Shown: piece by piece, positions 6,553 through 28,828 of the stretch
Layout of the letters: each line of letters opens with the position of its first letter
Numbering within the stretch: position 1 is the first letter of the stretch
From: an uncultured Methanosarcinales archaeon
GTDB taxonomy: Archaea > Nanobdellota > Nanobdellia > Woesearchaeales > ARS49
Assembly: GCA_964637115.1 (NCBI GenBank)
Contig: CAZWVL010000003.1
Coordinates: 64,001 to 128,000 of the forward strand
Length of the DNA stretch: 64,000 nt
Reading direction: 5' to 3'
Program-made: the position numbers and the translations under genes
The notes under the pieces: model-generated
What the model saw: only the letters and a program-made list of their open reading frames with translations
Databases searched by the model: none
Told to the model about the DNA's origin: nothing

Positions 6553-6957
6553 ATGAAAAGAGGACAACACGCTATCGGACTCGTATTATTAGGCATAGTG
6601 GCTATCATAGCAATCATAGGACTTGTTCTGCTCATCTCACGGCCAAGCAGCGCATACGTTCCACGGCCGGCATCACCACTCATCATCAGCACGCAAACAT
6701 TAAACTGGTACACACTTGTCGGCTTTACGCACAACTCAGGCAATCTGGGATGGTGCATGCAGCAAAGCGTGTCAAACGGCGGCTTCAAAGAAGCACTAAA
6801 CGGCGAAACACCAAACTGCTTGACTGTTTCTTCACAAATAGTTCCTGAAGATGTTTATCCGCTCTTTACGCAAGCAAGCCAAGGACAAGGATTTGCAACA
6901 GCATGCTTTACGTCATTCAACCAAGCACAACCACGCGTGTGCACAGGAGGTATTTAA
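6553..6957 (+). CDS. Small pilin-like protein with class III (prepilin-type) signal peptide
   Basis: MKRGQ followed by a hydrophobic stretch (HAIGLVLLGIVAIIAIIGLVLLIS); 4 Cys in the mature part. Confidence 0.7.
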   Translation: MKRGQHAIGLVLLGIVAIIAIIGLVLLISRPSSAYVPRPASPLIISTQTLNWYTLVGFTHNSGNLGWCMQQSVSNGGFKEALNGETPNCLTVSSQIVPEDVYPLFTQASQGQGFATACFTSFNQAQPRVCTGGI

Positions 6958-6958
6958 G

Positions 6959-10279: not shown

Positions 10280-10300
10280 CGTTTAAAGAGGGTGAAGTTC

Positions 10301-12457
10301 GTGACTAACGAAAAAAAGGGTCAGATTACTATTTTTATAATCATAGGTCTAATACTTCTTGTCATAATTGGCACGGCCATCTATCTCAGCACAAGAGAAG
10401 CTAGAAGACCATTCGAAGTAGCACGGCCGAAAGTAGCAGAGCTATCAACAGAAGTACAACCATTACGCGATTTTGTCGAATCCTGCATCCAACGACTGGC
10501 AACAGACGGTCTTAGAAAAATAGGAGACTCAGGAGGTTATGTAGACCAGAAATATCTCCAGTACAATATTCTTTCTCCAACCGAAGGCGAAGCAGTACAA
10601 ATGTCGCCCGGAGCAGGGCCGTCAGTAGCATACTGGTGGTATTTGAAAAGCAACAACAAATGCCAGCCACCAAACTGCGTTTTTGACTCGAAACGCCCAG
10701 GACTCAGAAGAGGGGATGGGCAGATAACAATCGAAGGACAACTTGACGAATACGTTACAAACAATCTGCGCACCTGCCTTGGAAACTTTGAAGACTACCA
10801 AAAACGAGGTTGCAAGGTGCAAGAACTTGATGATCCAAAAGTCACGGCAAACGTGGCAACAGACGACATATTCTTTGTAGGCAAGTACTCTTTAAGAGCA
10901 GTATGCGGCGGACACAGCTACGACATTGAAGACTATTACGTCACAATAGACCTGAACATCAGAGAAATCTACAATCTTGCAACAGAATTAACCAATTACG
11001 AAAAAGACTACAGACTGCTTGAAAGCGCAACCAAAAATCTAATCTACACCTTCAGCGATGTTGACTCAAGCAAACTTCCGCCACCGCGCGACCTGCAAGT
11101 AGGCCCGCCAAAACCAGGAGTGTTCTGGATAAAAAGCGAAGTAGCAAAGAAGCTTACAGGATTAGTTGCTGCTTACATTCCACTCATACAAACATCAGGT
11201 GTGAGTAACTATCACTACATTACAGCGCCAGAAGGAGTAAGAGACCCAGAAAACTTTGAACTGCTATATAACAGACAATTCTATCTGCCATTAAACTCAA
11301 CACACCCGAAATTAGGGGTAAGATTCAGCTATCTAGACTGGTGGAAGCCATACTTCAACCTGAACTGCAAAGGAGAACTTTGCAGAGCAGATTCTGGCAG
11401 CAATTTCGCACTGCTGCCAATAACAATCAACAGATACCAATTCGCATACGACTTCAGCTATCCTGTTCTGGTTGAAATCAGAAATTCAGAGGCGTTCAAC
11501 ACAGAAGGATACAGCTTCAACTTCTTTTTAGAACAAAACCTGAGAAACTCTGACGCGTTCACAACAGACGTTCCTGAATTCCAGGCAGCAGCAGCAAGAA
11601 CAGCACCATCAATTTTCTGCGATCCAAAACAACAAACCTCGGGAACAGTAAGCCTATTTGTCAAGGACGCTAAAAACCTGAAAGGAACGGAAGATGCGTC
11701 AGTCAGCTTCCTCTGCGGAGACAACGCGTGCATGTTCGGATCCACAAGAAACGGAAGCCTCTCAAGCAAATTCCCCCGCTGCGTAGGAGGAACACTGAGA
11801 ATAAACAAACAAGGATATGCGAGCTTCTCATCGCCCCTCGACACGCAAAGAGAAGAACCAATGAAAATTGACGTTTTACTCGAGCCAGTGCGCACAGTAA
11901 ATGCAACCGTACGAAATTTTGCACTAACGAAGGCAGGCAAACACGACCAGTGGGACTTCAGAGAAGGCGGATCATTAAGGCCGAGCGACAATCAAGAAAC
12001 AACCATACAATTAACGAGAATTGGAAACTCCTGGGAAGAATCATTCAGCTCAGTAGTCAGCTTAACCGGTGATGAAAGCAAAGAAATGTTCATCATACCG
12101 GGAAATTACAGCATAACAATAAACAGTTTCCTAAGAGAAAACCTGACCATACCACCAGACCAGCGCTGCTTCAAAATCAAAAAACTCTTCGGCAGCAAAC
12201 GAAAATGCTTCTGGGTGCCCCAAAACGCCATTGTCTTTAACGAGACCTCGCCATTCCCATACGGGGGAGCAGAATATGAGTATGAGTTCACAAGCTCAAT
12301 GCTAAGAGCAGCAAACAAGATAGAATTCAAACAATTCATCATTGCCATAGACCGAGTGCCAGAAGACAAACGAATTGTAGAAGATTTGAACCAAATCGAT
12401 AATGTAAACGCATATGCGCTGTCAAACCTTGACCGTATATACCCGGTGATAACATGA
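10301..12457 (+). CDS. Large class III-signal (KKGQ) protein A1, Cys-containing, paralog of 18186..20219
   Basis: GTG 10301 after GAGGGTGA gives MTNEKKGQITIFIIIGLILLVII; FVESCIQRLATDGL...GGYV, YQFAYDFSYPVLVEI and CGDNACMFGST match A2. Confidence 0.8.
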   Translation: MTNEKKGQITIFIIIGLILLVIIGTAIYLSTREARRPFEVARPKVAELSTEVQPLRDFVESCIQRLATDGLRKIGDSGGYVDQKYLQYNILSPTEGEAVQMSPGAGPSVAYWWYLKSNNKCQPPNCVFDSKRPGLRRGDGQITIEGQLDEYVTNNLRTCLGNFEDYQKRGCKVQELDDPKVTANVATDDIFFVGKYSLRAVCGGHSYDIEDYYVTIDLNIREIYNLATELTNYEKDYRLLESATKNLIYTFSDVDSSKLPPPRDLQVGPPKPGVFWIKSEVAKKLTGLVAAYIPLIQTSGVSNYHYITAPEGVRDPENFELLYNRQFYLPLNSTHPKLGVRFSYLDWWKPYFNLNCKGELCRADSGSNFALLPITINRYQFAYDFSYPVLVEIRNSEAFNTEGYSFNFFLEQNLRNSDAFTTDVPEFQAAAARTAPSIFCDPKQQTSGTVSLFVKDAKNLKGTEDASVSFLCGDNACMFGSTRNGSLSSKFPRCVGGTLRINKQGYASFSSPLDTQREEPMKIDVLLEPVRTVNATVRNFALTKAGKHDQWDFREGGSLRPSDNQETTIQLTRIGNSWEESFSSVVSLTGDESKEMFIIPGNYSITINSFLRENLTIPPDQRCFKIKKLFGSKRKCFWVPQNAIVFNETSPFPYGGAEYEYEFTSSMLRAANKIEFKQFIIAIDRVPEDKRIVEDLNQIDNVNAYALSNLDRIYPVIT

Positions 12458-15400
12458 GAAAGTTATGCATCATTGCCCTGTTTATGATGGCTCTGATAGT
12501 CAGCATACCGGTAGTATGGGCACAAGAACTAAGCATACAGCAATTCAACGGCAAAGGCAGCAGCAAAGGGGTAGCAAGAACACACGATGAGCTCACGATA
12601 GAAGTTCTCGCAAAGATTCCAGGCGAGGACATAATCAACGAAAGCCAAGTAAGACTATACGTGGAAGACAGCTATTCAAATTTTGATTCCTGCACGTCGG
12701 CAAGCGGCGGATATTACAAGTGCATTTTCCACGAACCAGACTTTGAAGCATACGAGCCAATCGTTTTCACGATAGAACTCCGAAATGACGCGGAAGACAT
12801 AGTGGGCAGCGAAGTAAAAACCCTAATTGTGGACGCTAATGGGCCAGTAATCAAAGATTTTACTGTTGAACCGAACGTGACAAGCGGGGAAGTTTCTGTT
12901 TCATACGTTGCAGAAGATTATGGTCTCAATTACGGAAGCACAGATCAGTGTGCAGGCATCAAACAAATCGTCATAACAGCAGGAAACATTAGCGTAACGG
13001 ACGCAGGCCAGCAAGAAGTATGCACAAAAGACAACACATTGCAACTAACTCTGACAAAACCAGGAAAGCAGCAAGTCTGCGCAACAGCAACAGACCACGC
13101 CAACTACGCCAGCGCGCCAAAATGCACGGAAGTAAGAGTGGACAAAGCTCCGCCAAACATTGAAAAACTGTCAATCTTAGACGACGAAGGATTCTTAATA
13201 ACACACGTGCACTCAGGCGAAGAAAGAACAGCAACAATTACTGCAACAATAAGCGATGACGGCGGAGTTGACAGCAACGAAGTCTACGGAAATTTCTTCC
13301 AATTAAATCCGAACCTTCCAGATGTAATTCCACCTGATTTAGCCTCAGGAGACCTTTACAGCTGGACAGGAATAGGAGTAAGCGAAGTCAGTCCTTGCCA
13401 GTTGAAAATAACGGCTAAAGACATTCTCGGAAATTTCGCGGAGAAACAATTCTCCTGCGACATAAGAGCAGACGATACTCCGCCAATCGTGAAAGGAATC
13501 ATTTCAGAAGCAAACAGAGGAGGAGTTCCGCTGTTTGGATACGGAACACCGCTCATTGTAGAACTTGAAGACCGCGATAATGCAGGCGGAGACGGCATAG
13601 GATTTGTAAGCAAAAAAGTCTACCTTGACATGCACGAGCTTGGAATTGGAAGCAACGTCCAGGCAGATGCCTGCTCACGTTATTCCGGGGCAACGTGGAG
13701 ATGCTTATGGTTCTTGACACCACCAGCAACAGTTCAAGAAAACACGTACCACATACAAGTTCTTGCAGACACAGCAGATGACTTGGGAAATACCGTCGGC
13801 AACGTAGCAGATTACGAGATAATCTACGACAACACAGGACCATACCCGCCACAAGTTCTTGACTTCAAGGTAATATCAGGAGAAGAAGGAGTAGAATATC
13901 GAGGCGGAGCAATCAAAGGAAGCTTTGTACAATACACAGTCAGATCAGCAGACTTCACAACAAGTTATGCAAACTTCACAGACATCGGAGGCAGCGCACA
14001 AACAGGAGCAACAACCTGCACTCCAACAACCGGCAATGCGAGTGACTGCATATTTGAAAGTTTAGTGGATTTAAGCGGACCATACACATCATACTTCACG
14101 TTCGTATTTGCAGACGATGCAAACAACACTGCACGAACAAACGCAACTCTTGAGATTTACGGCATTGATAATGAAACGAATGTCAAGTACTGGAAGTCAC
14201 CTCCAACAGTAACGTGCAGTCCATACGTCATTGACAGATCAACAGCATCACTAATTCCGCCAATAGCAACATGCAGAGTAGATTTAGAAACACCGCGCAG
14301 AGACATAACAACACTAGCAATTGCAGGGCCAACGGCGCCAGACGAATGCACTGGCGACATCGAACTTTTCTTGAATGATATTTACGTGACGAACACAGTA
14401 GAGGGCAGCACGCATCCATACGTGTTCATGAAGCTCGAACCAAGAGATTATGTGTTTAATGAACTAAACATCAACTGCCCGCTGTCAGTCTACAGCAAAC
14501 GCGCAGTTACTGCAGGCGGAAAAACAGTCCATTATGTCTCACCAGAACCGCAAGAAGTTCCAGTAAACATGACGCTTAAGTTCCACAGCAATCCTTTGGG
14601 TGAAATAAACGCGAACATCGACGACGAAATCAGAAGCGCAATGAAAGGAGGGCTGGCAAACGCGGCATGGATAAGCGACCTCCGCAAATGGCTCCACTAT
14701 GGAGAATTAATCTGCCAGATAAAAGTCCTCATCACCAACATCATCAGCGCGCTGTTTATGGTAAGCATAGTGCTTGGCATAACAGCAGTTGCGGTGAGAG
14801 CAACAGGTGTAGGAGCTGGCGCAGCAGAAGTGCCTGCTCAGGCAGCAAAAGCAACTTGCACCGCAGAAGAAGGAGGCTCGGAAAGCTACAAGATAAGCTT
14901 AGGATTCCTTGATTCAATCTGCTCAGTAATCAACTGCGCAGCAGTAAGCGGCAAAGGTTCAGGCATAGAAGCATACGCAGGAGGAGGAGTGCCCTGGTGC
15001 TCAAATATGCGGGCATACTTGCAAAACCTTGACCCAACAGGCCAAGGAGCACTCGACCTTGATGTCAAGAACTCACTCGTACTAAGCATAATATGTTTAT
15101 GCCTGCCAGGCATTATTTACAACTTAGACAAGCTCAGACAAATACAATGCTTTAAGGCAGTCTGTTTGCACGATGACGTCAAATTATCCGGCTATCCTGC
15201 AAGCTTCTGCGATGAAATGTACGGCTACATGATGTGCGCGTTTGTCATTGGAGAACTATTCTCCCTATTCCCATTCATAGCATTCTTCGACAAGATAATG
15301 AACATGGTATTAGACCTAATAACAAACCCAGTTGCACTATTCCTCACAGGACTCGGCTGGGTGTGCACACAAACCTGCTATACAATCGGCACGCAACCAG

Positions 15401-15561
15401 TATTATACACCGGTTGTGCGATATTGAAAACAGTATCGACAGTAGCAGAAGCAGTAGCAGCGTGGAAAACATACCAGAAAAACAAAGATTCATTCGGCAC
15501 AGTAGGAAACAACTACTGCGATAGAATGGAAGAACTGGAAGACGAGATGGGGGAAGGATGA
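12454..15561 (+). CDS. Large secreted protein B1: Ig-like repeats plus C-terminal Cys-rich hydrophobic helical domain
   Basis: Signal peptide MRKLCIIALFMMALIVSIPVVWA; repeated DxxxPxI Ig-boundary motifs; C-terminal hydrophobic segments with CLCLPGII; ATGA overlap with A1. Confidence 0.8.
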   Translation: MRKLCIIALFMMALIVSIPVVWAQELSIQQFNGKGSSKGVARTHDELTIEVLAKIPGEDIINESQVRLYVEDSYSNFDSCTSASGGYYKCIFHEPDFEAYEPIVFTIELRNDAEDIVGSEVKTLIVDANGPVIKDFTVEPNVTSGEVSVSYVAEDYGLNYGSTDQCAGIKQIVITAGNISVTDAGQQEVCTKDNTLQLTLTKPGKQQVCATATDHANYASAPKCTEVRVDKAPPNIEKLSILDDEGFLITHVHSGEERTATITATISDDGGVDSNEVYGNFFQLNPNLPDVIPPDLASGDLYSWTGIGVSEVSPCQLKITAKDILGNFAEKQFSCDIRADDTPPIVKGIISEANRGGVPLFGYGTPLIVELEDRDNAGGDGIGFVSKKVYLDMHELGIGSNVQADACSRYSGATWRCLWFLTPPATVQENTYHIQVLADTADDLGNTVGNVADYEIIYDNTGPYPPQVLDFKVISGEEGVEYRGGAIKGSFVQYTVRSADFTTSYANFTDIGGSAQTGATTCTPTTGNASDCIFESLVDLSGPYTSYFTFVFADDANNTARTNATLEIYGIDNETNVKYWKSPPTVTCSPYVIDRSTASLIPPIATCRVDLETPRRDITTLAIAGPTAPDECTGDIELFLNDIYVTNTVEGSTHPYVFMKLEPRDYVFNELNINCPLSVYSKRAVTAGGKTVHYVSPEPQEVPVNMTLKFHSNPLGEINANIDDEIRSAMKGGLANAAWISDLRKWLHYGELICQIKVLITNIISALFMVSIVLGITAVAVRATGVGAGAAEVPAQAAKATCTAEEGGSESYKISLGFLDSICSVINCAAVSGKGSGIEAYAGGGVPWCSNMRAYLQNLDPTGQGALDLDVKNSLVLSIICLCLPGIIYNLDKLRQIQCFKAVCLHDDVKLSGYPASFCDEMYGYMMCAFVIGELFSLFPFIAFFDKIMNMVLDLITNPVALFLTGLGWVCTQTCYTIGTQPVLYTGCAILKTVSTVAEAVAAWKTYQKNKDSFGTVGNNYCDRMEELEDEMGEG

Positions 15562-17306
15562 GAAAAATCCTCATTATTATTCTGATTGTACTCCTGGTTG
15601 GGTCGGTGATAGTTGAAGCTCAACAAACGTCATCCTCTGGAATTACTGTCACCCGTCGCGTGGAACCAGGCACACAGCCAGCAGCTGCTGCAAAACCAGG
15701 TGTAAAACCACCTACGCAGTACAATTACGTTGCTGAGAGGGACATTTCAAAAGATGAACCAGTTGTTGTAACAACAGGCGGCATTAGATACTACGAGTAC
15801 AAATTTGATACAGATATACGTAAAGGAGATACAATCGCATCACCAGATGCATTAGACACCAAAGTTCTGCAACAAATTCCTCCAGAAGTAAAAAAAGAAA
15901 CTGACAAAAACCGAGAATATACGTATACTTCTGAAACCAACACCTTCGTTTGGTCAAAAGATAAACCAAAAGACGAATATATTATTGAAACAAAGACCGA
16001 CCTCAAAGTAAGCGACGACGGCGAAAGCACAACCAGAGAAACCACACAATCAGTGTATGATAAAACACCTGAAAAAGAAAAGGGCGAATACGTTGAAGGA
16101 TCAAAGCGCACAGAAATTAAAGAAACAAAAACAGCGTCAAAAACAGATCCAAAAACAGGAAAAACAACCGAACGACAAGTGATTGCCAACGAAGGCAGAA
16201 GACTCTATGACAAGCAGGGCAATGAAATCGGAATCCTCTGGACCGGCTATTCAGCATCCGAAAAAAACCCATTGGTGAGCGAGAAAACTTCACTTACCTT
16301 TGTGGGTAAGGATGGTCATACATACTATTATGCTACCCGAGACCCGGACGGCAATCAAGTCATTATGGTAAATGAGCTGGATAAGATGAAAGAAGCCGGG
16401 TTTACAGACGAACAAATAAATCAAGCTAGAGTTGATATCGTCGCGTCAGGCGTCATTGGATTCTTGGATTCTCTAAAAGTGCTCACCTGGCAGCAAAGCC
16501 TCGGCAGATTCATGAGGGCATACTACGAATTTGCAGGATTAAGACAATTATCATCATTATTATGGCCAAGTTATGATGCGGAAGTGCAGGCAAGAAAAGC
16601 AGAAATCCAGCAAAAATTCTGCATTACAGCAGGCATAACAAACTGCGCAATCTCAAAAATATGCGGCACAATATATCCAATCGGTGCAGACAACGTCCTT
16701 GCAGGCAGAGGGCCAGGAGGCAAATTTGTATCCAGCGCCTCACTCAACGCAGAGCGCTCAATCCCAATAGAAGTAGAAGGAATGACAAGACAACAAATGA
16801 TAGACTTGTTCGGCAATGCAACAGTCATCAAAGGAGTGCTTGTAAACCTCACAGACCCGGCATTTGATCCAAGAGTACTTGGCAGGATGAAACTCAGGCT
16901 CTACCACGTGCAGTATAGCGTAACAAACAATGCAGAAGATGAAAAGGAACTCAAGTACAACCTGCACTTCAGAAGAGTTGGAGAACAATTGAACTCAAGC
17001 TATGGAAAACCAGTCTACCAGTCGCGCTGGTGGACAGACAACGCGCCAACATTATCCTATCTTGCAACCGCACGCGACCACATTTACAAGTTCAGCGCAA
17101 CAGAATATGATAATGTATGCCTGGAGTTTGACCCAAAACTGCCGTCAGGACACGCAGCATTCTCAGACATGGTCGATGAATTATGCGTGCCATTCATAGA
17201 ATACGCAGGCGGGCCAACAGAAATAACGCCAGGCGCACAAGCAGCAGCAGGAACACAGCCTGCCCCAGGAGCACCTGTTTCAAGCGTGCCAGGAGCAGCG
17301 GTATGA
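15558..17306 (+). CDS. Secreted/membrane-anchored protein C with charged low-complexity N-half and Cys-containing C-half
   Basis: MRKILIIILIVLLVGSVIVEA signal; K/E/T-rich region aa 20-230; ATGA overlaps at both ends. Confidence 0.75.
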   Translation: MRKILIIILIVLLVGSVIVEAQQTSSSGITVTRRVEPGTQPAAAAKPGVKPPTQYNYVAERDISKDEPVVVTTGGIRYYEYKFDTDIRKGDTIASPDALDTKVLQQIPPEVKKETDKNREYTYTSETNTFVWSKDKPKDEYIIETKTDLKVSDDGESTTRETTQSVYDKTPEKEKGEYVEGSKRTEIKETKTASKTDPKTGKTTERQVIANEGRRLYDKQGNEIGILWTGYSASEKNPLVSEKTSLTFVGKDGHTYYYATRDPDGNQVIMVNELDKMKEAGFTDEQINQARVDIVASGVIGFLDSLKVLTWQQSLGRFMRAYYEFAGLRQLSSLLWPSYDAEVQARKAEIQQKFCITAGITNCAISKICGTIYPIGADNVLAGRGPGGKFVSSASLNAERSIPIEVEGMTRQQMIDLFGNATVIKGVLVNLTDPAFDPRVLGRMKLRLYHVQYSVTNNAEDEKELKYNLHFRRVGEQLNSSYGKPVYQSRWWTDNAPTLSYLATARDHIYKFSATEYDNVCLEFDPKLPSGHAAFSDMVDELCVPFIEYAGGPTEITPGAQAAAGTQPAPGAPVSSVPGAAV

Positions 17307-18184: not shown

Positions 18185-18185
18185 A

Positions 18186-20219: not shown

Positions 20220-23200
20220 GAACACGAAAGAAGAAAAGAGGAAAGTGAATTATTTGACGCGCTCTTTGAGTGAATTTTTCTCCCCCACACTTTGTAAGGG
20301 GGAGAAAAATTCACCCCATCATAGAACTCTTGCGCGGCGGCAGCTTGGGTCAGTGGCATTATTCATGGCATTCCTCATCATCATGCTTCCAATAGTTGAT
20401 GCTCAAGCAATTGGCGACCAGCCAACAGCACAGGGAGAAGAAACAACAGTCAAACCACTGTTTGTAAACGCAACCATTCCACGATATCCGCGCACAATGA
20501 AGATAGACATTGCAGGAATTACAAAACCAGGAGCAACTATTACGATCAATATCAACGGCGCTGATGTCAAAAAAGACATCATTGATGATGGAACATTTTT
20601 GTTCAAGCAAGTCCAACTGCAGGCAAGCAACGCAATAATCATTACAGCAGAACTCGGCGGCGAAACAGCAACACAAACATACCAAGCAGACGTTGACAAT
20701 TCTCCGCCGCTCATCAATATCACGACAACACCCGTAGTAACGGCAGCAAGCTCAACAGTCAAGGTCAAGGTTTCAGAACCAGTCAATCTGACAGTGCAGG
20801 CAGGAAATCAAACAAATAAATCATACTCGCTCCAGGCAGGAAGCAACGACGTTAAAATAGAACTGCAGCCAGGCGAAAACATGGTCGGCTTTACGGCAGT
20901 TGATAGAGCCGGATTTAAATCATTCATTGAAGAAAGAATCGTTTACGACACAGGACCGCCAAGATTTGAAAAAACAAACCTGAACCAATTGTCTCCGACA
21001 TACAGGCAAGAAGTGGAAGTCAAGGGCAAACTATCAGAACCCGGCAGCGTAACAGCATTTGTCAACGGCAAACCACAAAAAACAGAAGCAACAGCTTCGG
21101 ATGGAAGTTTCTCGATAAAAGTAAAACTTGAAAGATCGCTTTCGGTAACTGCAGGCTCACAATCAGCTTCAGGAGTCACGGGAGGAGCAGTATCAATAGA
21201 ACAAGGCATCCAATGGAAAAGCAAACTAAGGCTCGAGGCAATCGACGCAGCAGGACTAAAAGCAACAACGGAAGAAGTTGAGATAGCATATTCCATCTGC
21301 GGAAGCGGCACGTGGATAGACGTCCAATTAACAGACCCAATGCCGGACATACTCAATCCAAGACTGATAATTGAAGGCATACAGCAAGTCGGCATAGGCT
21401 TCAACTACACATACAGAGGCGGCGCAAAAGCAGAAATCGATGCAAGAAGCATCAGAATAAGAACATTAATGCTTTCTCCAGAAGTCAGGAAAGAATTTGA
21501 CAACAATCTGGTGATGGTACGGGCTCCAAACGTAAGAGCTCAGCGCGCAACCAAGCCTAGCGGAGTAGGCTACATACAAGTAAACTTCAATCCTTTAGAA
21601 GACCCGTGGAGCCTGCCTGAAAAAGACGGTAAAAAAGAAGAAGCGCCTGCAAACGCAACAATGTTCGATCGTGAACAAAGAATCTCCCAACACAGAGAAG
21701 GAGACTGCATCACGCCCGGCTTTGGCTGCATGAAACTATTCCTTGAACTTGAAATTCCATTCACAGAAACAACCAGGAAAATGGCCTACGACCCGATTGT
21801 GCGCGGCACACTTGAAAAAGATGTCGTGGAGCCATTAACACAAAGAACGTGCATAGATGTCAACATTGCGATAGACAAAAGAGTTCCTCCGGATGTATTG
21901 CCATCAGGACTTTTGCGAGCATCCAGCGAATTCCTCGGGGCAGTCATACAAGGCATAGACAAAGTATTAATGCCAATCCAGACAATCGGAAAGTACTTGT
22001 TTTACACGTGTGTAGCTGGACAATTCCTGTCACTAGTTCCAATCGTTCTCGAAAAATACAACTGCGAGTTCAGAAAAGTAGCGGACGTTTTAGCAGGAGG
22101 AGAAGGCGCATTTGACCCCAATGTAGCAGCAATCAACGCCTGCGACGCAGAATATGGTGCAGGTTCAGACGCAGCAGACAACTGCAACACCTGCCATAAA
22201 TGGAAAGACTACCGCAAAAAATTTGTCAGAACATACAGACAAATCTGCGACAGAGTAATGTGCCCGGCAGCACCATCACTGCAGTATTATCTCAAAACCA
22301 GAGGCAGAGAATCACCAACAGAAGTCAAAGCAGAAAATGCAAAAGCTGATCCCGTGATTGCCCAATACGCCCAAGGCGGCAAACTCTTTGCCGGCAGCGA
22401 CTGCGCAGCATGGGTTGACGTGAACAAGCGCAAAGAAGAAAGAGGCACGAAGAAACCAGTACTTGCTCCACGATTATTCTTCACCACTGATGAAATTCAA
22501 AAAATCTATGATAACTGGCTCAAACATCAGTCAAACACTGCAGGAGAAACAGAAACAGGCGGCGTAAACTGCGCAGGACTGCACCCTGCAACACCAGAAT
22601 GCTGCGGATATGAGTATATGCAGGAATGGAGTTCAGCGTGCGGAACAAGCGCACTCGGGCAAAGCCTGGATACTTTTGACGAAATAAAAGAAAGCACCTG
22701 CCTCGCAGCACAACGATCAGGCAAGAACGAAATAGGAGGATTAGAAGGAGAATCAATACAGTGCAACAAACTGTTGAATGCAGCCAGCGGATTCTGCGAG
22801 AAAAACGGAATGCCGCCTTTGACGCCAATTAGAGTAACGACAATTGATGCGAGAAAAGCAGAGTCATTAGAACTGCAAAAATACGCAGAAAGCAACGACC
22901 TCTACATCATCGTGCAGGATAAAGGCGCGGCGAGCTCCATTTTAGGCGTAGTACCAACAGGCCAGTCACAAGGATACTCAATCAAGCTGGGCTTAATAAT
23001 AAAAACATTGGAGTTCCAAAAAAGCGACAAGCCGGAAATAATTGCAACAAGCGAACGCTCCAAGCTCACAGAAAAACTTGACGTGATAGAATATCCGGAG
23101 TATACAGCATTCCAAACATCATTCTTCAGCCAGGAACAGATAGACGTTTACAGAGAAAAAGCAGCAATTCCACCAGATTTCAAAAAAACACTCTGTGATG

Positions 23201-26200
23201 CAGCAGGCAAAAAATTCGGTCAGTGCAACATTGATGAAAAGTACATTTACGCCCAAGTAATTCAGGCCATTGGAAGCCCAGACAAAGACTACATCATCAA
23301 GCCAAACGAAGGGCTGATAAACTCAGTCAGATGCCTTTGCATCCCAACAATTGTTGGATACCTCAAATTATGGAGAGGAATAATGGGAGCAGTAAAAAGC
23401 TGCATTGACACCATACTCCTGACTGGCGACGGAGAGAATGGAATGTGCCAGGCACTCGTCAGCAGATACGTCTGCGATTTATTGTATGACGCGCTTGCCT
23501 GCTTCACGCAAAAATTCGGCACAGGACAAGGAAGAGTAGAAAAAGAAGGCGGCGGAGACATAATGGGGGCGTTAGTTTCTGCAGGAAGCGAAATGCAAAG
23601 AGAAGTGCAAGGCAGATATGGAGAAACAGGGCTTTACAAAGCAGTATTTGTCGACAGAAAATTAGTACACTCAATCTGCATGTGGGCGTTCACAGGAACG
23701 TGGAACTTCGACTTGGGAGCAATATTTGACCAAGCAATAGACGAAATCCCGATCAGCAGCCAGGCATTGCTAACACCGTGCAACAGAAGATTCGTAAGCT
23801 TCAACCCAACAACAAGACCAGGAGGACTGGTAACGTGGGTGTATCACTTCGGGTCATTCTTCGCAGCAGGAGCAGACGCAGAAATAGAATTGCACCTTGT
23901 CTGCAGCGATGATTTCACGTGCAAAGAATCAGACGGCTTTGAAAACGGCAAGTGCGACTGCCAAGGCAAAGGAAAAAGAGATATTGTTATCAGGCCGGAA
24001 AACCTTCCAACAAGAGCAAAGAAAAACCAAATCCTGAGCGAAGAAATATTCTTCACGATGCAAGCAGGCAGCGGAGAGAGCAATGTTCGATATGACAAAG
24101 CATACCTCCTCTACAGGTGGAAAGAAGCAAACAAACAGATGAAAGAAGACAAGACAGAACCCTGCTCAATTGGATTAACAGGCGGCGGTGGAAGCATGCC
24201 TGCATTCTGCAGATGGGATCCGTTCACAGTAAGCTTCAGGTGCCAGTTTGGCGAAGCGGCAGGAGGAATACGCTTCAAATCAGGAAAACCAGACTACAAA
24301 CATCCGACAGTAAAAGGCGGAGTTTTCGCACTTGACGAAAGCGTTAGTGTAGAACTGCAGATGCAGCAAGACTATCCAGGCGGAGAAAAGTACAACAAAT
24401 ACTTGCAGTACACCATACTAGGCCCAGGCAACAAAGAACTTGCCACTAACAAAGACAGAGGACTAATATTATTACAGACAAATGGCGATTACAATAAGCG
24501 ATTATCAGCAGACGGCACGCCACCAGTGCCAATAGAAATAAAACGAGAATGGTTCACAACAGTAGAAGCAGGAAAAACCTTTTCGGCCAGACAATGGGCA
24601 AAATCACCACAAAATCCAACAGGCACAGCAGCAGACAACAAAGTAATTGAAGATGTGCAATTGGTAGGACTTGTAGGAGCAGTAGCAGCACAAAAGCAGT
24701 TCGTGCTTGAGCTAACAAGACAAGGCGACAAAATAAATTATGCAGTCTACACAGCTGGCACGAACGACAAGCCAGGAGTGGGGGAAAAGGGCGGATTCTA
24801 CGTTGCAACACCAGCACTCTGCACAGGCACAATTTCTGGAACGAAAATTACGTGCACACCATCAATAGCTCCAAGACCAGGGCAACCACCACAGCCGCAA
24901 GACACTCTAACAATAACACTCAAAGCAGATCCTCTTTACCCAACAGTAGACGAACTAATCCAGCTGCACATAAACATGAACATTCCAAGAACATTAGCAG
25001 CTGACCCGTGCAAAGGAGACGTAAACAACAGGTATCAACAATCATTCAAAATGATGCTGATGGCATACGATGCAGATAATTATGGATCACCATCAGAACA
25101 AGTAGCAGTAGACCCGTATACAGGAGCGGAAGCGGTGTTTGAAATTCCATTTTATGCCATGTGCGCAACGGCAGATGAATTAAAGCCGCTGGAAGGAATA
25201 CTTGGGCCAGCAGAAATATTGGCAGGACTGAGCAAGGACATAAACGCGTGGTTAGCACCAGAAAAAGATTACAAGACCAAACTCGAAGGATTTGTCTCGC
25301 AACCACTCAAGATAGAACAAACTACGAGTGTGCAAAATCAACTCGACCAGATAATCTTTGGCGAAACGGCAAATTCAGTTGTACTCGAGAAATACAAAAC
25401 CAATCTGAAGAATATAACAGGAATGGATGCAGTAAAAGCAGCAGTTGAAGAATTATACAATATTATCAGACCTCCATTCCACGCTGAACTCGATTTGCGC
25501 AATGTTGTCGGCTTGTCAATTGATGCCAAAAATGTTATCACAAACGAGCTTAAAGGCACGCCAAACGTGACAAAAATACAGGATGCGCTCAGACCAATCA
25601 TACCAGAACTTCAGAAAGCACTCGAAGCAAAACAGAAATTACTAACTTTGCTGCCAGCAGCTGCAGGCGAAAAAGGAGCCTGCCCAAGCGGAAAACAAGT
25701 TCCAGAAAAAACAGGAGAATATTATCTCTGTGCAACATCCTTGCCATCAGACAAATGGGTTGAAGTAACGGACAGGCAATGCTACGCAGTTGAAAAACAA
25801 ACATGCTACAAATTGTCGGCTTCAAACCTCTGTTACGACAAAAACACGAATGGAGACACGTTCCACTGCGACACAGAATGCAAAGGAAACTCAGAAACAT
25901 CAAGTGAGCAACGCATTTGTCCGAAGAAAGAAGAGCCAACGTGTTGTGTAGTCAAGTCAACAATTGCGCAAAAACTCCTGCAACTGAAAAACCAAATCGG
26001 CCAGCAGCAAGGCGATGATGAAAGCTTCAGGTCAAGCATTACCACAACAAGGACAAATGAAGAATTAATTACATATCTGGTTGGAACAGGCGATATAAAT
26101 GTCCCAACACTGATATCAGAGCTGAAAGCATATGCGTCTTTGAAAAATCTTGAAAGAGAAGGGCTCTCAAGTGTTGTTGGGTCATCAGGCCTGACACCCA

Positions 26201-27444
26201 CTGATGAAGTCAGACGTTTCATTGGCATGGATGAAGATTATGCCTGGAAAACAACATTTATGGTATTTGGAATACCTTTTGAACTTCACGCTTTGTCGGT
26301 ATCGGTTGAAAACTTGAATAAAATGAAAGACGACCTAGTGGCAATGGCACAAGCGCCGCCAACAGCGCCAAACGGACCATCTCCTGAAAACATAAAAGCA
26401 GCCATTGCCCGCATTTCATTGGAAGTTGGCGTTATTAAGGCAACGCGCGCACTTGCCATCAATTCGCTTGACAAAGACCTAGGCATCATACCAAAGACTA
26501 CAGAAGAAGTTGTAAAAGAAACTGCTGGTGCAGCGCCGGCAGCAGCGTCAGTTGCAGCCCCGCCAAAACTTCCGCTCAGCATCAACGGCAAAACAGACCT
26601 TGCAATTATTACAAAAGGAACAGATATTCAAGTCAAAATAATACTTCCAAAAAACGTACAAGCCTTTGAGTACATTGAATTATTCGCATACAAAAGCAAT
26701 GTTCACATTGCCACCTGGGACCTCAGAAACAACTACAATCCAAGCACGGGTGAGGCAACATATATGTTAGGCCCAGACCAGTACGCCAATTTTGTAATAG
26801 GCGAAACATACGAATTTGACATGGCGTATAATCCGCCGCACACAATTGGAAACAAAGTACAAGTGAGAATAATTGTTCCGCCATGCGGAGACGGAAAAAT
26901 AGACCAAGGAGAAGTATGCGACAGAAAGAGCGATGGAACAGTAATAGCAAGCAATGAAATGGTTTACAATCCAACCACATTTACTGCATACTGGCAGATT
27001 TATGCACCATCGATGGGACCATTCGGAGCGACTGAATATAGAGTATTGTTCAGCAAAAACATGCAGACGTTCTGTAATGATATCATTGGAGAAGATTGTG
27101 ATGACAAGGTGGAATACTCTGCAGAAAAAGGATGGTGTTCAGGAGACTGCAAGAAATTCATGCCAAGAGTTGGGTGCGTAGATGATGACACAATCGGCGA
27201 CAGCGGAAGAGCAGCATATCTCACGCCAGAATTCTATTACGAAGGCACGGAAAAAAAGATGAACAACGTATGGTGGTATCTCTTCAGCGATCCAAACGCG
27301 GGAAGAAATGGATGCTATCCAACCACTGAAGAGGCAGGATTGCCTCCATACAACGATAAATGGACAGAAGCACCAGTTCCAATAGACTATCCGCAATTTA
27401 TGACCAAGCCCGCTCCTTTCCAACCTCCAACGGCACAACCATGA
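20212..27444 (+). CDS. Giant 2410-aa surface protein B2: Ig-like repeats, Cys-rich hydrophobic domain, coiled regions, CGDG..E.CD repeat
   Basis: Hydrophobic signal VALFMAFLIIMLPIVDA; Ig-like N-terminus; CLCIPTIVGYL segment homologous to B1; PPCGDGKIDQGEVCD near the C-terminus. Confidence 0.8.
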   Translation: MDKNTKEEKRKVNYLTRSLSEFFSPTLCKGEKNSPHHRTLARRQLGSVALFMAFLIIMLPIVDAQAIGDQPTAQGEETTVKPLFVNATIPRYPRTMKIDIAGITKPGATITININGADVKKDIIDDGTFLFKQVQLQASNAIIITAELGGETATQTYQADVDNSPPLINITTTPVVTAASSTVKVKVSEPVNLTVQAGNQTNKSYSLQAGSNDVKIELQPGENMVGFTAVDRAGFKSFIEERIVYDTGPPRFEKTNLNQLSPTYRQEVEVKGKLSEPGSVTAFVNGKPQKTEATASDGSFSIKVKLERSLSVTAGSQSASGVTGGAVSIEQGIQWKSKLRLEAIDAAGLKATTEEVEIAYSICGSGTWIDVQLTDPMPDILNPRLIIEGIQQVGIGFNYTYRGGAKAEIDARSIRIRTLMLSPEVRKEFDNNLVMVRAPNVRAQRATKPSGVGYIQVNFNPLEDPWSLPEKDGKKEEAPANATMFDREQRISQHREGDCITPGFGCMKLFLELEIPFTETTRKMAYDPIVRGTLEKDVVEPLTQRTCIDVNIAIDKRVPPDVLPSGLLRASSEFLGAVIQGIDKVLMPIQTIGKYLFYTCVAGQFLSLVPIVLEKYNCEFRKVADVLAGGEGAFDPNVAAINACDAEYGAGSDAADNCNTCHKWKDYRKKFVRTYRQICDRVMCPAAPSLQYYLKTRGRESPTEVKAENAKADPVIAQYAQGGKLFAGSDCAAWVDVNKRKEERGTKKPVLAPRLFFTTDEIQKIYDNWLKHQSNTAGETETGGVNCAGLHPATPECCGYEYMQEWSSACGTSALGQSLDTFDEIKESTCLAAQRSGKNEIGGLEGESIQCNKLLNAASGFCEKNGMPPLTPIRVTTIDARKAESLELQKYAESNDLYIIVQDKGAASSILGVVPTGQSQGYSIKLGLIIKTLEFQKSDKPEIIATSERSKLTEKLDVIEYPEYTAFQTSFFSQEQIDVYREKAAIPPDFKKTLCDAAGKKFGQCNIDEKYIYAQVIQAIGSPDKDYIIKPNEGLINSVRCLCIPTIVGYLKLWRGIMGAVKSCIDTILLTGDGENGMCQALVSRYVCDLLYDALACFTQKFGTGQGRVEKEGGGDIMGALVSAGSEMQREVQGRYGETGLYKAVFVDRKLVHSICMWAFTGTWNFDLGAIFDQAIDEIPISSQALLTPCNRRFVSFNPTTRPGGLVTWVYHFGSFFAAGADAEIELHLVCSDDFTCKESDGFENGKCDCQGKGKRDIVIRPENLPTRAKKNQILSEEIFFTMQAGSGESNVRYDKAYLLYRWKEANKQMKEDKTEPCSIGLTGGGGSMPAFCRWDPFTVSFRCQFGEAAGGIRFKSGKPDYKHPTVKGGVFALDESVSVELQMQQDYPGGEKYNKYLQYTILGPGNKELATNKDRGLILLQTNGDYNKRLSADGTPPVPIEIKREWFTTVEAGKTFSARQWAKSPQNPTGTAADNKVIEDVQLVGLVGAVAAQKQFVLELTRQGDKINYAVYTAGTNDKPGVGEKGGFYVATPALCTGTISGTKITCTPSIAPRPGQPPQPQDTLTITLKADPLYPTVDELIQLHINMNIPRTLAADPCKGDVNNRYQQSFKMMLMAYDADNYGSPSEQVAVDPYTGAEAVFEIPFYAMCATADELKPLEGILGPAEILAGLSKDINAWLAPEKDYKTKLEGFVSQPLKIEQTTSVQNQLDQIIFGETANSVVLEKYKTNLKNITGMDAVKAAVEELYNIIRPPFHAELDLRNVVGLSIDAKNVITNELKGTPNVTKIQDALRPIIPELQKALEAKQKLLTLLPAAAGEKGACPSGKQVPEKTGEYYLCATSLPSDKWVEVTDRQCYAVEKQTCYKLSASNLCYDKNTNGDTFHCDTECKGNSETSSEQRICPKKEEPTCCVVKSTIAQKLLQLKNQIGQQQGDDESFRSSITTTRTNEELITYLVGTGDINVPTLISELKAYASLKNLEREGLSSVVGSSGLTPTDEVRRFIGMDEDYAWKTTFMVFGIPFELHALSVSVENLNKMKDDLVAMAQAPPTAPNGPSPENIKAAIARISLEVGVIKATRALAINSLDKDLGIIPKTTEEVVKETAGAAPAAASVAAPPKLPLSINGKTDLAIITKGTDIQVKIILPKNVQAFEYIELFAYKSNVHIATWDLRNNYNPSTGEATYMLGPDQYANFVIGETYEFDMAYNPPHTIGNKVQVRIIVPPCGDGKIDQGEVCDRKSDGTVIASNEMVYNPTTFTAYWQIYAPSMGPFGATEYRVLFSKNMQTFCNDIIGEDCDDKVEYSAEKGWCSGDCKKFMPRVGCVDDDTIGDSGRAAYLTPEFYYEGTEKKMNNVWWYLFSDPNAGRNGCYPTTEEAGLPPYNDKWTEAPVPIDYPQFMTKPAPFQPPTAQP
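20270..20314. repeat. Perfect 17-bp inverted repeat at the 5' end of the giant gene
   Basis: GTGAATTTTTCTCCCCC (20270-20286) / GGGGGAGAAAAATTCAC (20298-20314), 11-nt loop. Confidence 0.9.
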
Positions 27445-28250
27445 CCCTAATTACAACCCTCCCCCTCGCCTGGAAGGCATTCACTGAAAACAAGAAGTAT
27501 TTGATATGGATAATCCTAATAGAATTCGTATTCCTCTTTGTTCTAACTCAAATACATTTGATGTACTTCGTGCCAAGCGCAGAAGCAGCAGCAAGAGCAG
27601 GAGAAATAATGACGCAAGAAGTACAGAAATTGCCGGAAACAGAAATTTATCAGCTTGAAACACTGCTTGTGAAAAATGAAGGCTTTATGACAGCATACAA
27701 CGAGTTGCTTGCCTATATGGGCTTTTTCATAATAAGCCTGTTTATTGCATTTGTTGTTTTCAGAACTCCATTATGGTATATCTCGCACAAAAGCATACTG
27801 AAGAAAATGCCCTGGAAACCAGTGCTGATAAAGTTTCCATTGCTTTCACTGTTCTGGTTTGTAGTGCTGGTAATAGCTTTTTCACTTTACAGCATTGGCA
27901 CAGGCAGCACAACAACAGTACTGCCAATTTTCAGCCCGTTCTGGGTGACGATACTAATGTACATAGTATTTCTGGCTATCTTTTACTTCTCCCAAATCAG
28001 TTTTGCTCTCATCCCGTCACAACAAACCTTTAAGAATACGTTCATCTATGGCACTAGACATGCAAAAACAATCATTCCAGCATTCCTCGTCAACGCAATC
28101 ATTACTTTCATTGTCTGCTCATTGCCATTCAACTGGATTACAACAAAACCACTCATCTCGCTCGCAATCATACTCATCATCACAATTCCAGCACTTGCAT
28201 TTGCAAGACTGCACATCATAGTAGCAACATGGCAAAAACCGCAATCATAA
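27441..28250 (+). CDS. Polytopic membrane protein D2, probable paralog of D1
   Basis: About 6 hydrophobic segments with D1-like spacing; start reset to ATG 27441 (ATGA overlap with the B2 stop). Confidence 0.75.
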   Translation: MTLITTLPLAWKAFTENKKYLIWIILIEFVFLFVLTQIHLMYFVPSAEAAARAGEIMTQEVQKLPETEIYQLETLLVKNEGFMTAYNELLAYMGFFIISLFIAFVVFRTPLWYISHKSILKKMPWKPVLIKFPLLSLFWFVVLVIAFSLYSIGTGSTTTVLPIFSPFWVTILMYIVFLAIFYFSQISFALIPSQQTFKNTFIYGTRHAKTIIPAFLVNAIITFIVCSLPFNWITTKPLISLAIILIITIPALAFARLHIIVATWQKPQS

Positions 28251-28828
28251 CAATATTGCTGATATTCGTAGTAGTTCTGTTAGTTTACATAGCAGTCAGA
28301 CAGCCAGCAGTTGTAACAACGCCCGCACAGCCAACGCCAATACAGCAGCTAACGCCAAGGGCGCCAGCAATAGAAGTCGGCGTGCCAACGCAAAAAGCGC
28401 CCGTGACAAAACAACCGGCAGCAGGAATTGAAATAGAAAAAGTCATACCGCAAGAAGTAAACTTCTGGATAAATGACATAAGAGCGCCAGAAACAACCAC
28501 GTATGCAGAAGGATTAAACTTCATACCAATCAAGCAAAGCGACATCAAAACATTTGCAGGAAGCTTTGGACCATACTTTGAAGACCCGACTCCGCATATG
28601 AAAGTAGTCCTTTGCGCAGAATATTACAAAGTCGCTGCAGCACCAGCCTGCGAAGTCGTGCAATTAGTATTCCAAGACAAGTATGCAACGTTCGCACGCG
28701 GATACCAATTTGACGAGTACATAGGCGGAATGGCAGCAAAAGACTACGTTGCCTATTACACAATTTACGCCGGAGAAGCTCCAGTTGGATACAGCAACAA
28801 AGCGGTCATTAGAACAGTAAGAGATTAA
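28229..28828 (+). CDS. N-anchored protein E with Pro/Thr linker and globular C-terminal domain
   Basis: TAIITILLIFVVVLLVYIAV TM, PAVVTTPAQPTPIQQ linker, Cys pair (LCAEYY...PACEVV). Confidence 0.75.
   Translation: MAKTAIITILLIFVVVLLVYIAVRQPAVVTTPAQPTPIQQLTPRAPAIEVGVPTQKAPVTKQPAAGIEIEKVIPQEVNFWINDIRAPETTTYAEGLNFIPIKQSDIKTFAGSFGPYFEDPTPHMKVVLCAEYYKVAAAPACEVVQLVFQDKYATFARGYQFDEYIGGMAAKDYVAYYTIYAGEAPVGYSNKAVIRTVRD

What the first reader, a model, noticed from the sequence alone, without database searches (positions are those of the whole stretch)
10301..28828. 18.5-kb translationally coupled, internally duplicated surface operon: candidate undescribed contact/attachment machine
Seen: eight co-oriented genes with essentially no intergenic space (ATGA overlaps at 12454, 15558, 17303 and 27441; 8- and 22-bp overlaps; one 1-bp gap). 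The order is A1-B1-C-D1-A2-B2-D2-E. A1 and A2 are roughly 700-aa paralogs with KGQ prepilin-type signals; B1 and B2 are large Ig/Cys proteins sharing a hydrophobic domain; D1 and D2 are polytopic membrane proteins. No ATPase, TadC-like platform or peptidase is encoded inside. Known: class III signals mark proteins processed by prepilin peptidases for type IV filament systems, and DPANN archaea depend on host contact. Inference: two related modules forming a pilus-tip/membrane complex for host recognition, attachment or conduit formation. I recognise no named system that matches.
Basis: partly seen in the sequence, partly recalled or inferred. Interest (0 to 1): 0.85.

Follow-up and report, generated by a model that had tools for sequence, protein, structure and literature searches.

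The report
Conserved duplicated pilin-anchored surface operon
This 18.5-kb operon of a tiny uncultivated Woesearchaeota archaeon encodes two ancient copies of a surface module: a large pilin-type anchor protein, a giant cysteine-rich protein and a membrane protein. The module is kept in almost every relative and matches no described system, so it is a strong but untested candidate for how these cells attach to partners.

Summary
Eight co-oriented, overlapping genes (A1-B1-C-D1-A2-B2-D2-E) lie at 10292-28828, and every stated junction is confirmed. The duplication is real: A1~A2 (BLASTP E 3e-23), D1~D2 (profile E 3e-12), and B1~B2 through the N-terminal Ig region plus a 72-residue Cys/hydrophobic module.

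No protein hits Pfam, NCBIfam, PHROGs or PDB sequences.

The unit is conserved. The full eight-gene order recurs in all 5 same-family genomes examined. Two modules occur in other families of the order. More distant families of the class keep one module, with A always directly followed by a giant B and often by D. The A family was found in 282 of 301 sampled genomes of the phylum, and the B core in about 1,670 50%-identity clusters.

A carries a conserved class III signal ([KR][GAS]Q, Gln +1 in 98%), a novel alpha/beta domain and two CnaB-like sandwiches. B1 is six Ig-like domains plus a helical Cys-rich domain. The C-terminal third of B2 is hypervariable.

The peptidase, ATPase and platform are encoded elsewhere in the genome.

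Best reading (0.55): a type IV-pilin-anchored giant adhesin complex. The function is inferred, not shown. This scan noted the same operon earlier in another genome (e1-4641077).

The parts
10292..12457 (+). A1: a 721-aa (718 aa from GTG 10301) class III signal protein, paralogue of A2
   Evidence: ORF. The N-terminus reads NEKKGQITIFIIIG. It shares 26% identity with A2 (E 3e-23). It has no Pfam or NCBIfam hit. Orthologues show 77% (same genus) to 23% identity, always upstream of B1. An SD-like AAAGAGGG precedes both candidate GTG starts.
12454..15561 (+). B1: a 1035-aa exported protein with a signal peptide, six Ig/PKD/FN3-like domains and a C-terminal helical, hydrophobic, Cys-rich domain (719-1035)
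15558..17306 (+). C: a 582-aa exported protein with a low-complexity Lys/Glu/Thr-rich N-terminal half and a conserved C-terminal domain (about 315-560)
   Evidence: ORF and signal peptide. Orthologues are found only through the C-terminal part. It evolves fast, with 47% identity to the same-genus orthologue against 72-84% for its neighbours. HMM hits in G215 and G148.
17303..18184 (+). D1: a 293-aa polytopic membrane protein (7 hydrophobic helices)
   Evidence: It is homologous to D2 by hhalign (97.6%, E 3e-12). It has no Pfam hit, either alone or across 27 family members.
18186..20219 (+). A2: a 677-aa class III signal protein with an N-terminal hydrophobic helix (5-34), an alpha/beta domain (45-430) and two CnaB/transthyretin-like beta-sandwiches (430-522 and 523-654)
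20212..27444 (+). B2: a 2410-aa exported giant with 59 Cys
   Evidence: Orthologues of 1,500-3,000 aa directly follow A in 30 loci. It has no family hit.
23179..24291 (+). Conserved Cys-rich core of B2 (residues 990-1360), which contains the module shared with B1
   Evidence: This is the most conserved stretch across the class. Alignment A4 has 5 invariant Cys. A profile search found 1,668 50%-identity clusters, 1,382 of them at E <= 1e-30. Most are proteins of about 1,800-3,700 aa with the core in the middle; shorter ones of 660-1,500 aa also occur.
25159..27441 (+). Hypervariable C-terminal third of B2 (residues about 1650-2410)
   Evidence: Alignment occupancy is 0.2-0.4 across 30 orthologues. 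Identity to the same-genus orthologue is about 30-45% here (7% in one 100-residue window), against 72-93% for residues 100-1600.
27441..28250 (+). D2: a 269-aa polytopic membrane protein (6 hydrophobic helices)
   Evidence: It shares 84% identity with the same-genus orthologue. The ESM Atlas finds only unnamed Woesearchaeota/Nanobdellota clusters.
28229..28828 (+). E: a 199-aa protein with an N-terminal anchor, a Pro/Gln/Ala-rich linker and a small C-terminal domain
   Evidence: Orthologues were found only in same-family genomes. T-rich runs follow the stop codon.
20258..20318 (.). Palindromic repeat element of about 58 nt inserted in frame in the 5' end of B2, lengthening the n-region of its signal peptide by about 40 aa
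   Evidence: A perfect 17-nt inverted repeat lies at 20270-20286 / 20298-20314. Four other copies occur in the genome. Orthologues lack the extension. Metagenome contigs break at 20258 and 20315.

Best explanation
This is a lineage-wide cell-surface complex of Woesearchaeales, built from an ancient module that this order carries twice.

In each module, A is made with a class III (prepilin-type) signal. The genome's single A24 prepilin peptidase would cut it after the Gly/Ala/Ser that precedes the conserved Gln. A would then be held by its N-terminal hydrophobic helix, either in the membrane or in a short type IV filament assembled by the single ATPase/platform pair encoded elsewhere. A's CnaB-like stalk and novel alpha/beta domain would carry the Sec-exported giant protein B. 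B has a conserved Cys-rich core and, in B2, a hypervariable C-terminal third that would face the outside and bind a partner cell or surface. D, a 6-7-helix membrane protein, would be the membrane-embedded assembly or docking partner. C and E would be lineage-specific accessories.

Shown here: the gene anatomy, the paralogy, the conservation as a unit, the signal motif, the folds of A2 and of the B1 ectodomain, and the presence of the processing and assembly genes in the genome.

Inferred: processing, physical association, location on the cell and the adhesive role.
For: (1) Signal. The class III signal is conserved. Across 59 A proteins of the class, Gln +1 is kept in 98% and Gly15 in 100%, and the N-termini read [KR][GAS]Q[ILV][TS]xF[IV][IV][IL]G.

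(2) Machinery. The own genome has one A24 peptidase (C3:7069-7923), one T2SSE ATPase and a weak T2SSF platform next to it. The peptidase is present in 21 of 21 A-positive genomes tested.

(3) Pilin context. The N-terminal 200 residues of A occur in shorter pilin-context proteins. A3 (490 aa, E 2e-31) sits in a second locus of the same genome, beside a 1,699-aa 82-Cys giant and four small class-III-signal ORFs. A 175-aa version occurs in G004.

(4) Coupling. A and B are coupled almost everywhere. A is directly followed by B in about 30 loci from about 25 families, and the two overlap by 4 nt in 7 of the 9 A2/B2 junctions measured.

(6) Conserved scaffold, variable end. Against the same-genus orthologues, A2 is 80% and D2 84% identical. 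B2 is 72-93% identical over residues 100-1600 but only about 30-45% from residue 1700 on, and C is 47%.

(7) Literature. In Nanobdellati (DPANN), type IV filament genes are scattered, and Epd-like (Gln +1) pilins are the common type (PMC13705601).
Against: No pilin or class III signal HMM matches A, and the A2 domain 45-430 has no clear pilin fold match. A protein of about 700 aa is far larger than known archaeal pilins.

No ATPase, platform or small pilin lies in the operon. The flanks are housekeeping genes (ThrRS, PTH2, S6e, NOG1), and A and D are about as conserved as those genes. That pattern fits a constitutive structural element as well as it fits an adhesin.

The prepilin peptidase is also present in 17 of 19 genomes where A was not found, so its presence does not discriminate.

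No binding, expression or localisation data exist.
Confidence: 0.55

Rival explanations
1. A constitutive envelope scaffold, analogous to an S-layer or sheath. A would be the membrane-anchored stalk, like SlaB but anchored at its N-terminus. B would be the outer canopy, D a membrane base, and there would be no role in partner recognition.
Against: B is Cys-rich and poor in N-glycosylation sequons (9 in 2,410 aa), which is unlike known archaeal S-layer proteins (my own knowledge of those families). The genome encodes separate S_layer_C-domain proteins. Annotated S-layer genes, not this cluster, are listed among the top-expressed Woesearchaeota genes in PMC11606122. The matches to S-layer structures rest on generic beta-sandwiches. 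The hypervariable B2 tail fits a ligand-facing end better than a lattice.
Confidence: 0.2
2. A membrane-active contact machine. The disulfide-stapled hydrophobic helical module shared by B1 and B2 would insert into, or extract lipid from, the partner cell's membrane, as a conduit, a fusion-like bridge or a lipid-scavenging device. A and D would be the base in the symbiont's own membrane.
For: The module is conserved: B1 866-937 matches B2 1026-1097 (89%, E 2e-6). The Cys residues of the B core are invariant across the class. B1 719-1035 is predicted to be all-helical, with a 46-residue helix that contains a charge-free 24-residue hydrophobic stretch followed by a Gly/Ala-rich turn. Both proteins are exported by Sec signals, so conserved Cys pairs would be expected to form disulfides outside the cell (inference).
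Against: The helical domain is modelled with low confidence (pLDDT 45-70). No pore-former, fusogen or lipid-transfer fold or family was matched. The hydrophobic helices may simply anchor B1 in the cell's own membrane.
Confidence: 0.12
3. A bindosome-like or enzymatic capture system. A would be a class-III-signal-anchored binding protein or hydrolase, as with the Sulfolobus sugar-binding proteins, and B would be a scaffold used for nutrient acquisition.
For: Large non-pilin proteins with class III signals are known from the Sulfolobus bindosome (PMC4858521). The A2 domain 45-430 is a compact alpha/beta domain of unknown fold.
Against: No solute-binding or enzyme family is matched. Across the class only Glu213 and Asn406 are conserved polar residues; the other invariant positions are Cys, Trp, Gly, Pro and aromatic residues. 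No transporter gene lies in the operon.
Confidence: 0.08
4. Cargo of a mobile element or provirus.
For: A small palindromic repeat element lies in the 5' end of B2. The BFVD matches are to phage baseplate and tail proteins.
Against: The operon keeps the same chromosomal flanks (S6e, a 301-aa protein, NOG1) in G043 and G026 (G055 and G149 keep only the upstream neighbour), and it is present in nearly all genomes of the phylum sampled. GC content is uniform. There are no PHROG hits, no integrase and no reverse transcriptase. The BFVD matches have TM scores of 0.15 or less and rest on beta-sandwiches.
Confidence: 0.02

Closest known systems
Bacterial type IVa pilus tip (priming) complex: minor pilins FimU-PilVWX plus the large non-pilin adhesin PilY1
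   Same: Pilin-type (class III signal) proteins are encoded next to, and presumed to hold, a large Sec-exported adhesin. The assembly ATPase, platform and peptidase are encoded elsewhere.
   Different: There is no sequence or fold relation. B lacks the PilY1 beta-propeller, vWA and DUF2341 domains. A is about 700 aa rather than a small minor pilin. The module includes a polytopic membrane protein (D) and is duplicated.
Epd pili / archaeal type IV filament 'system 1' of Methanococcus maripaludis (EppA-processed pilins with Gln at +1)
   Same: Both have the [KR]G-Q signal with a conserved Gln +1. System-1-type pilins are the common type in Nanobdellati, whose type IV filament genes are scattered (PMC13705601).
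   Different: Epd pilins are small filament subunits. A has no detectable similarity to them, and no Class_IIIsignal or DUF361-type HMM matches it. An EppA-type peptidase was not distinguished from PibD/FlaK here.
Sulfolobus S-layer pair SlaA/SlaB
   Different: SlaB is anchored by a C-terminal helix after a coiled coil, whereas A is anchored at its N-terminus by a prepilin-type helix. There is no sequence relation, and B is Cys-rich. The genome has separate S_layer_C-domain proteins.
Sulfolobus bindosome (class III signal sugar-binding proteins assembled by the Bas system)
   Same: Large non-filament proteins carry prepilin-type signals and stay at the cell surface. Accessory membrane proteins are part of the system (PMC4858521).
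   Different: A has no solute-binding domain, and no BasEF-type genes or transporter lie nearby.

Membership tests
Type IV filament pilin-like proteins (class III signal peptide substrates) | Short basic n-region, Gly/Ala at -1, and a hydrophobic helix of about 20 residues directly after the cleavage site | tested here: met
   A1 reads NEKKG/QITIFIIIGLILLVIIGTAIYL and A2 reads NKKKG/QITIFIIIGIILLLSIGVGLYF. The motif is kept in about 30 orthologous loci, and Gln +1 is kept in 98% of 59 sequences.
Type IV filament pilin-like proteins (class III signal peptide substrates) | Recognised by curated pilin or class III signal models (Pfam, NCBIfam) | tested here: inconclusive
   No hit at E <= 0.1. 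These short models often miss divergent archaeal pilins, so this does not exclude membership.
Type IV filament pilin-like proteins (class III signal peptide substrates) | Prepilin peptidase (A24), assembly ATPase and platform protein present in the genome | tested here: met
   Peptidase_A24 at C3:7090 (55 bits). T2SSE at C4:1098-3353 (56-58 bits). An adjacent 710-aa, 7-helix protein gives a sub-threshold T2SSF match.
Type IV filament pilin-like proteins (class III signal peptide substrates) | Pilin fold: a long N-terminal helix packed on an antiparallel beta-sheet | tested here: inconclusive
   The A2 model has helices 5-34 and 45-71 followed by strands 144-188. No pilin structure was matched, because the list is filled by the CnaB-like domain.
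Type IV filament pilin-like proteins (class III signal peptide substrates) | Cleavage by the peptidase and incorporation into a filament | not testable with these tools
   Needs proteomics, biochemistry or imaging.
PilY1-type pilus tip adhesins | C-terminal beta-propeller, vWA or DUF2341 domains | tested here: not met
   B1 and B2 give no such Pfam or NCBIfam hit. The B1 model is an Ig chain plus a helical domain.
Archaeal S-layer proteins | S-layer domains (S_layer_N / S_layer_C, SlaA/SlaB-like architecture) with a C-terminal anchor | tested here: not met
   None of the eight proteins has an S-layer family hit. S_layer_C hits lie elsewhere in the genome. The only similarity to SlaB is one beta-sandwich.
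Bindosome-type class III signal binding proteins | Solute-binding protein domain after the class III signal | tested here: not met
   No SBP family hit, and no match of the A profile in the PDB.

The most novel reading that the evidence does not exclude
The A-B-D module is the defining host-contact organelle of Woesearchaeales, Pacearchaeales and related DPANN archaea. A pilin-anchored giant protein would use its disulfide-stapled hydrophobic helical core to engage or breach the partner's membrane, for a conduit, a fusion-like bridge or lipid extraction, while the hypervariable B2 tail would set partner specificity.
Probability: 0.12. Interest if true: 0.9.

Novelty: new variant of a known kind. 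Interest (0 to 1): 0.72.

Why it matters
Woesearchaeota and their relatives are among the most abundant uncultivated archaea, and they are thought to depend on partner cells. No attachment or exchange apparatus is known for them.

This operon takes up 1.5% of a 1.27-Mb genome. It is kept in order across the family and as a core module across the class, yet it consists entirely of proteins with no described family. It therefore gives concrete, testable targets:
- an N-terminal peptide of A that would prove prepilin processing;
- antibodies or tags for cryo-ET;
- the variable B2 tail as a probe for host identity.

If the membrane-active reading holds, it would point to a new way for cells to connect.

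Tried and rejected

**Expression.** No RNA holder is listed for the operon, so there are no expression data.

**Read laying.** Only contigs were available. Identical contigs occur in samples that are not the source. I do not use summed depth to rank genes.

**Apparent A2-B2 fusion.** The fusion seen in G191 (2,618-2,644 aa) is an artefact: the junction is a run of masked or unknown bases.

**Diversity-generating retroelement.** I considered one as the cause of the variable B2 tail. The genome has no reverse transcriptase and no template-like repeat of the B2 3' region.

**Family and structure searches with no significant hit.**
- Pfam, NCBIfam and PHROGs on all eight proteins.
- Pfam on 27 D-family members.
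- PDB sequence profiles for A, B1, the B core and D.

**ESM Atlas.** It returned only unnamed archaeal clusters. The nearest named leads for D2 (DUF7847 at 0.84, UPF0259 at 0.83) fall below the level I would trust.

**Fold searches.**
- For A2 and B1 only generic beta-sandwich and Ig matches came back. The A2 domain 45-430 and the B1 helical domain remain effectively untested.
- BFVD matches (baseplate J-like and similar) have TM scores of 0.15 or less.

**Alignment.** An alignment of the B2 N-termini across the class was too poor to use (14% column identity).

**Literature.** Five searches found no description of this cluster.
Full report
**1. Observation**

The ORF listing finds eight + strand ORFs that fill 10292-28828:
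- A1, 10292-12457. A second GTG at 10301 follows an SD-like AAAGAGGG.
- B1, 12454-15561.
- C, 15558-17306.
- D1, 17303-18184.
- A2, 18186-20219.
- B2, 20212-27444.
- D2, 27441-28250.
- E, 28229-28828.

Reading the junctions directly confirms four ATGA start/stop overlaps, an 8-nt overlap, a 22-nt overlap and a 1-nt gap. A hairpin plus T-run and TATA-like boxes precede A1. T-runs follow E. The stated boundaries are therefore plausible as one transcription unit.

The flanks are archaeal housekeeping genes: ThrRS, PTH2 and S6e upstream, and a NOG1-type GTPase downstream. GC content is even across the window.

The window is contig C3:64001-128000 of a 1.27-Mb genome that is 98% complete. Homologues are named Candidatus Woesearchaeota, Nanoarchaeia or Nanoarchaeota. 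The DNA occurs in freshwater-sediment metagenomes.

**2. The duplication is real**

- A1 and A2 align over 576 residues at 26% identity (E 3e-23).
- D1 and D2 are not related by BLASTP, but profiles built from orthologues are (hhalign 97.6%, E 3e-12, 237 columns).
- B1 and B2 share the signal peptide and N-terminal Ig region (97%, E 5e-11). They also share a 72-residue Cys/hydrophobic module, B1 866-937 against B2 1026-1097 (89%, E 2e-6).
- C and E have no paralogue in the operon.

**3. No known family**

None of the eight proteins reaches significance in Pfam, NCBIfam or PHROGs. Profiles of A, B1, the B core and D find nothing among PDB sequences. Scanning 27 D-family members against Pfam also finds nothing.

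**4. Conservation as a unit**

*Distribution.* The A2 protein finds a relative in 282 of 301 sampled genomes of the phylum (211 of 224 genera), usually in several copies. That tally includes two unpublished genomes, G243 and G244. No other claim here rests on them. A pattern scan of one genome per species found at least 420 loci.

*Gene order.* I fetched 30 loci and mapped them with BLAST and family HMMs.
- In all five same-family genomes examined (G043, G026, G055, G191, G149) the order is A1-B1-C-D1-A2-B2, followed by D2-E in all but G055. G043 and G026 keep both flanks (S6e and a 301-aa protein upstream, NOG1 downstream).
- Other families of the order (G215, G148, G109, G004, G009, G298) keep two modules with small rearrangements.
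- In 12 loci from families of the wider class there is a single module. A of 637-716 aa is followed directly by a giant Cys-rich B of 1,760-3,005 aa, and D follows in at least five of them.

*Junctions.* The A2/B2 junction is a 4-nt overlap in 7 of the 9 loci measured.

*B core.* A profile of the B core (alignment A4) finds 1,668 clusters at 50% identity, 1,382 of them at E <= 1e-30. Most are proteins of about 1,800-3,700 aa with the core in the middle; shorter ones of 660-1,500 aa also occur.

**5. Anatomy of the proteins**

*A2.* The AF2 model has pLDDT 88.
- An N-terminal hydrophobic helix spans 5-34, followed by a flexible link.
- A compact alpha/beta domain spans 45-430 and has no clear structural match.
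- Across 59 A sequences of the class, the conserved positions (at least 90%) are Gln7 (the +1 residue), Gly15, six Cys, Trp, Gly, Pro and aromatic residues. Only Glu213 and Asn406 are polar. This looks structural rather than catalytic.

*B1.* The AF2 model has pLDDT 78.
- An all-helical, Cys-rich, partly hydrophobic domain follows (719-1035). It is modelled with low confidence.

*B2.*
- The most conserved part across the class is residues 1001-1250.
- The last 760 residues or so are lineage-specific.
- Even against the same-genus orthologue, identity falls from 72-93% (residues 100-1600) to about 30-45% from residue 1700 on.
- C is also fast-evolving (47%, against 72-84% for its neighbours).

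*D1 and D2.* They have 6-7 hydrophobic helices. Their only Atlas neighbours are unnamed archaeal clusters.

**6. Link to type IV filament machinery**

- The genome encodes one A24 prepilin peptidase (C3:7069-7923). On contig C4 it encodes one T2SSE-type ATPase (751 aa) directly followed by a 710-aa, 7-helix protein with a sub-threshold T2SSF match.
- A motif scan of the whole genome finds only 12 ORFs with a [KR]G[QA]+hydrophobic N-terminus. They include A1, A2 and a third A-like protein, A3, at C4:81519-82991. A3 matches the first 200 positions of the A profile (E 2e-31).
- A3 sits in a compact minus-strand operon with a 1,699-aa, 82-Cys giant (not homologous to B1 or B2) and four small class-III-signal ORFs. 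This layout recalls bacterial operons that encode minor pilins together with PilY1.
- A 175-aa protein in G004 also matches the N-terminal part of A.
- Two small KGQ-signal ORFs lie 3 kb upstream of the operon in the window, at 6553-6957 and 6917-7717.
- The peptidase is present in 21 of 21 A-positive genomes tested. It is also present in 17 of 19 genomes where A was not found, so this result is compatible but not discriminating.
- A 2026 survey states that type IV filament genes are scattered in Nanobdellati and that system-1 (Epd-like) pilins are the common type there. It does not describe this cluster (PMC13705601).

**7. Interpretation**

The best-supported reading is a pilin-anchored giant adhesin complex.
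- A is processed by the prepilin peptidase and held by its N-terminal helix, in the membrane or in a short filament.
- A carries B on the cell surface.
- D is the membrane partner.
- The variable B2 tail, and perhaps C, faces the environment or a host.

What is shown is the anatomy, the conservation, the signal motif and the presence of the processing and assembly genes. Processing, association, location and function are inferred. I put this reading at 0.55.

The main rival (0.2) is a constitutive envelope scaffold similar to SlaA/SlaB. Three points weigh against it: B is Cys-rich and poor in sequons; the genome has separate S_layer_C proteins; and annotated S-layer genes are listed among the most expressed Woesearchaeota genes in the one available metatranscriptome study (PMC11606122).

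A membrane-active reading (0.12) rests on the conserved Cys-stapled hydrophobic helical module. It remains possible, but the module is poorly modelled.

Bindosome-like or enzymatic roles (0.08) and a mobile or viral origin (0.02) have little support.

**8. Novelty**

The literature searches and two reviews of archaeal type IV pili gave no description of this cluster.

Earlier notes of this scan report the same duplicated operon in another genome (e1-4641077). They also report many related 'pilin-like plus giant Cys-rich' operons in Woesearchaeota. I verified the conservation independently here.

I class the finding as a new variant of a known kind, namely surface complexes that depend on type IV filament machinery. 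Every component is a new family.

**9. Limits**

- Only two structure jobs were allowed, so the A2 domain 45-430, the B core and D were not folded alone.
- No RNA data exist for this organism.

Noticed in passing
window 20258-20318: A palindromic element of about 58 nt (perfect 17-nt inverted repeat, 11-nt loop) is inserted in frame just after the B2 start codon. It adds about 40 residues that orthologues lack. Related copies (78-88% identity) lie at C22:5147-5203, C4:61889-61950, C4:82865-82904 (the 5' end of the A3 ORF) and C11:2213-2268. Metagenome contigs break exactly at its borders. It looks like a small MITE- or REP-like repeat family.
   Followed up: partly
own genome, contig C4:73748-85770, minus strand (locus L074): This is a second surface operon. 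It encodes two Cys-rich exported proteins (567 and 374 aa), an A-like class III signal protein (490 aa), a 1,699-aa giant with 82 Cys and one bacterial TSP3 repeat, and four small class-III-signal (pilin-like) ORFs of 164-371 aa. All are overlapping or adjacent.
   Followed up: partly
window 6553-6957 and 6917-7717: Two small ORFs have MKRGQ/MKKGQ class III signal N-termini and no Pfam hit. They lie between ThrRS and PTH2, 3 kb upstream of the operon, and are candidate filament pilins.
   Followed up: partly
window 9217-10122: A 301-aa protein with one membrane helix and a weak Ig-like C-terminal domain is conserved directly upstream of A1 in four same-family genomes (84-32% identity). It may belong to the system, although a hairpin plus T-run separates it from A1.
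   Followed up: partly
own genome, C2:145670-146479 (locus L076): A third D-family paralogue (269 aa, 6 helices, HMM E 5e-14) lies away from any A or B gene.
   Followed up: no
own genome, C1:9111-9887 and C13:21351-22130: The N-terminal 34 residues shown for these two pilin-like ORFs (258 and 259 aa) are identical on the two contigs. This points to a repeat or an assembly duplication. The genome's contamination estimate is 4.25%.
   Followed up: no
loci L077, L080, L082, L085, L089, L105 and others: Several public records that carry close homologues of A2 are titled 'uncultured Methanosarcinales archaeon' or 'Candidatus Binatia bacterium'. The gene content matches Woesearchaeota, so these automatic names are probably wrong.
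   Followed up: no
window 31262-35212, minus strand: Three consecutive ORFs (769, 298 and 232 aa) have no significant Pfam hit. They lie next to the mucin-like stalk paralogues noted by another reader at 35213-40691. This window is unusually rich in orphan surface genes.
   Followed up: no
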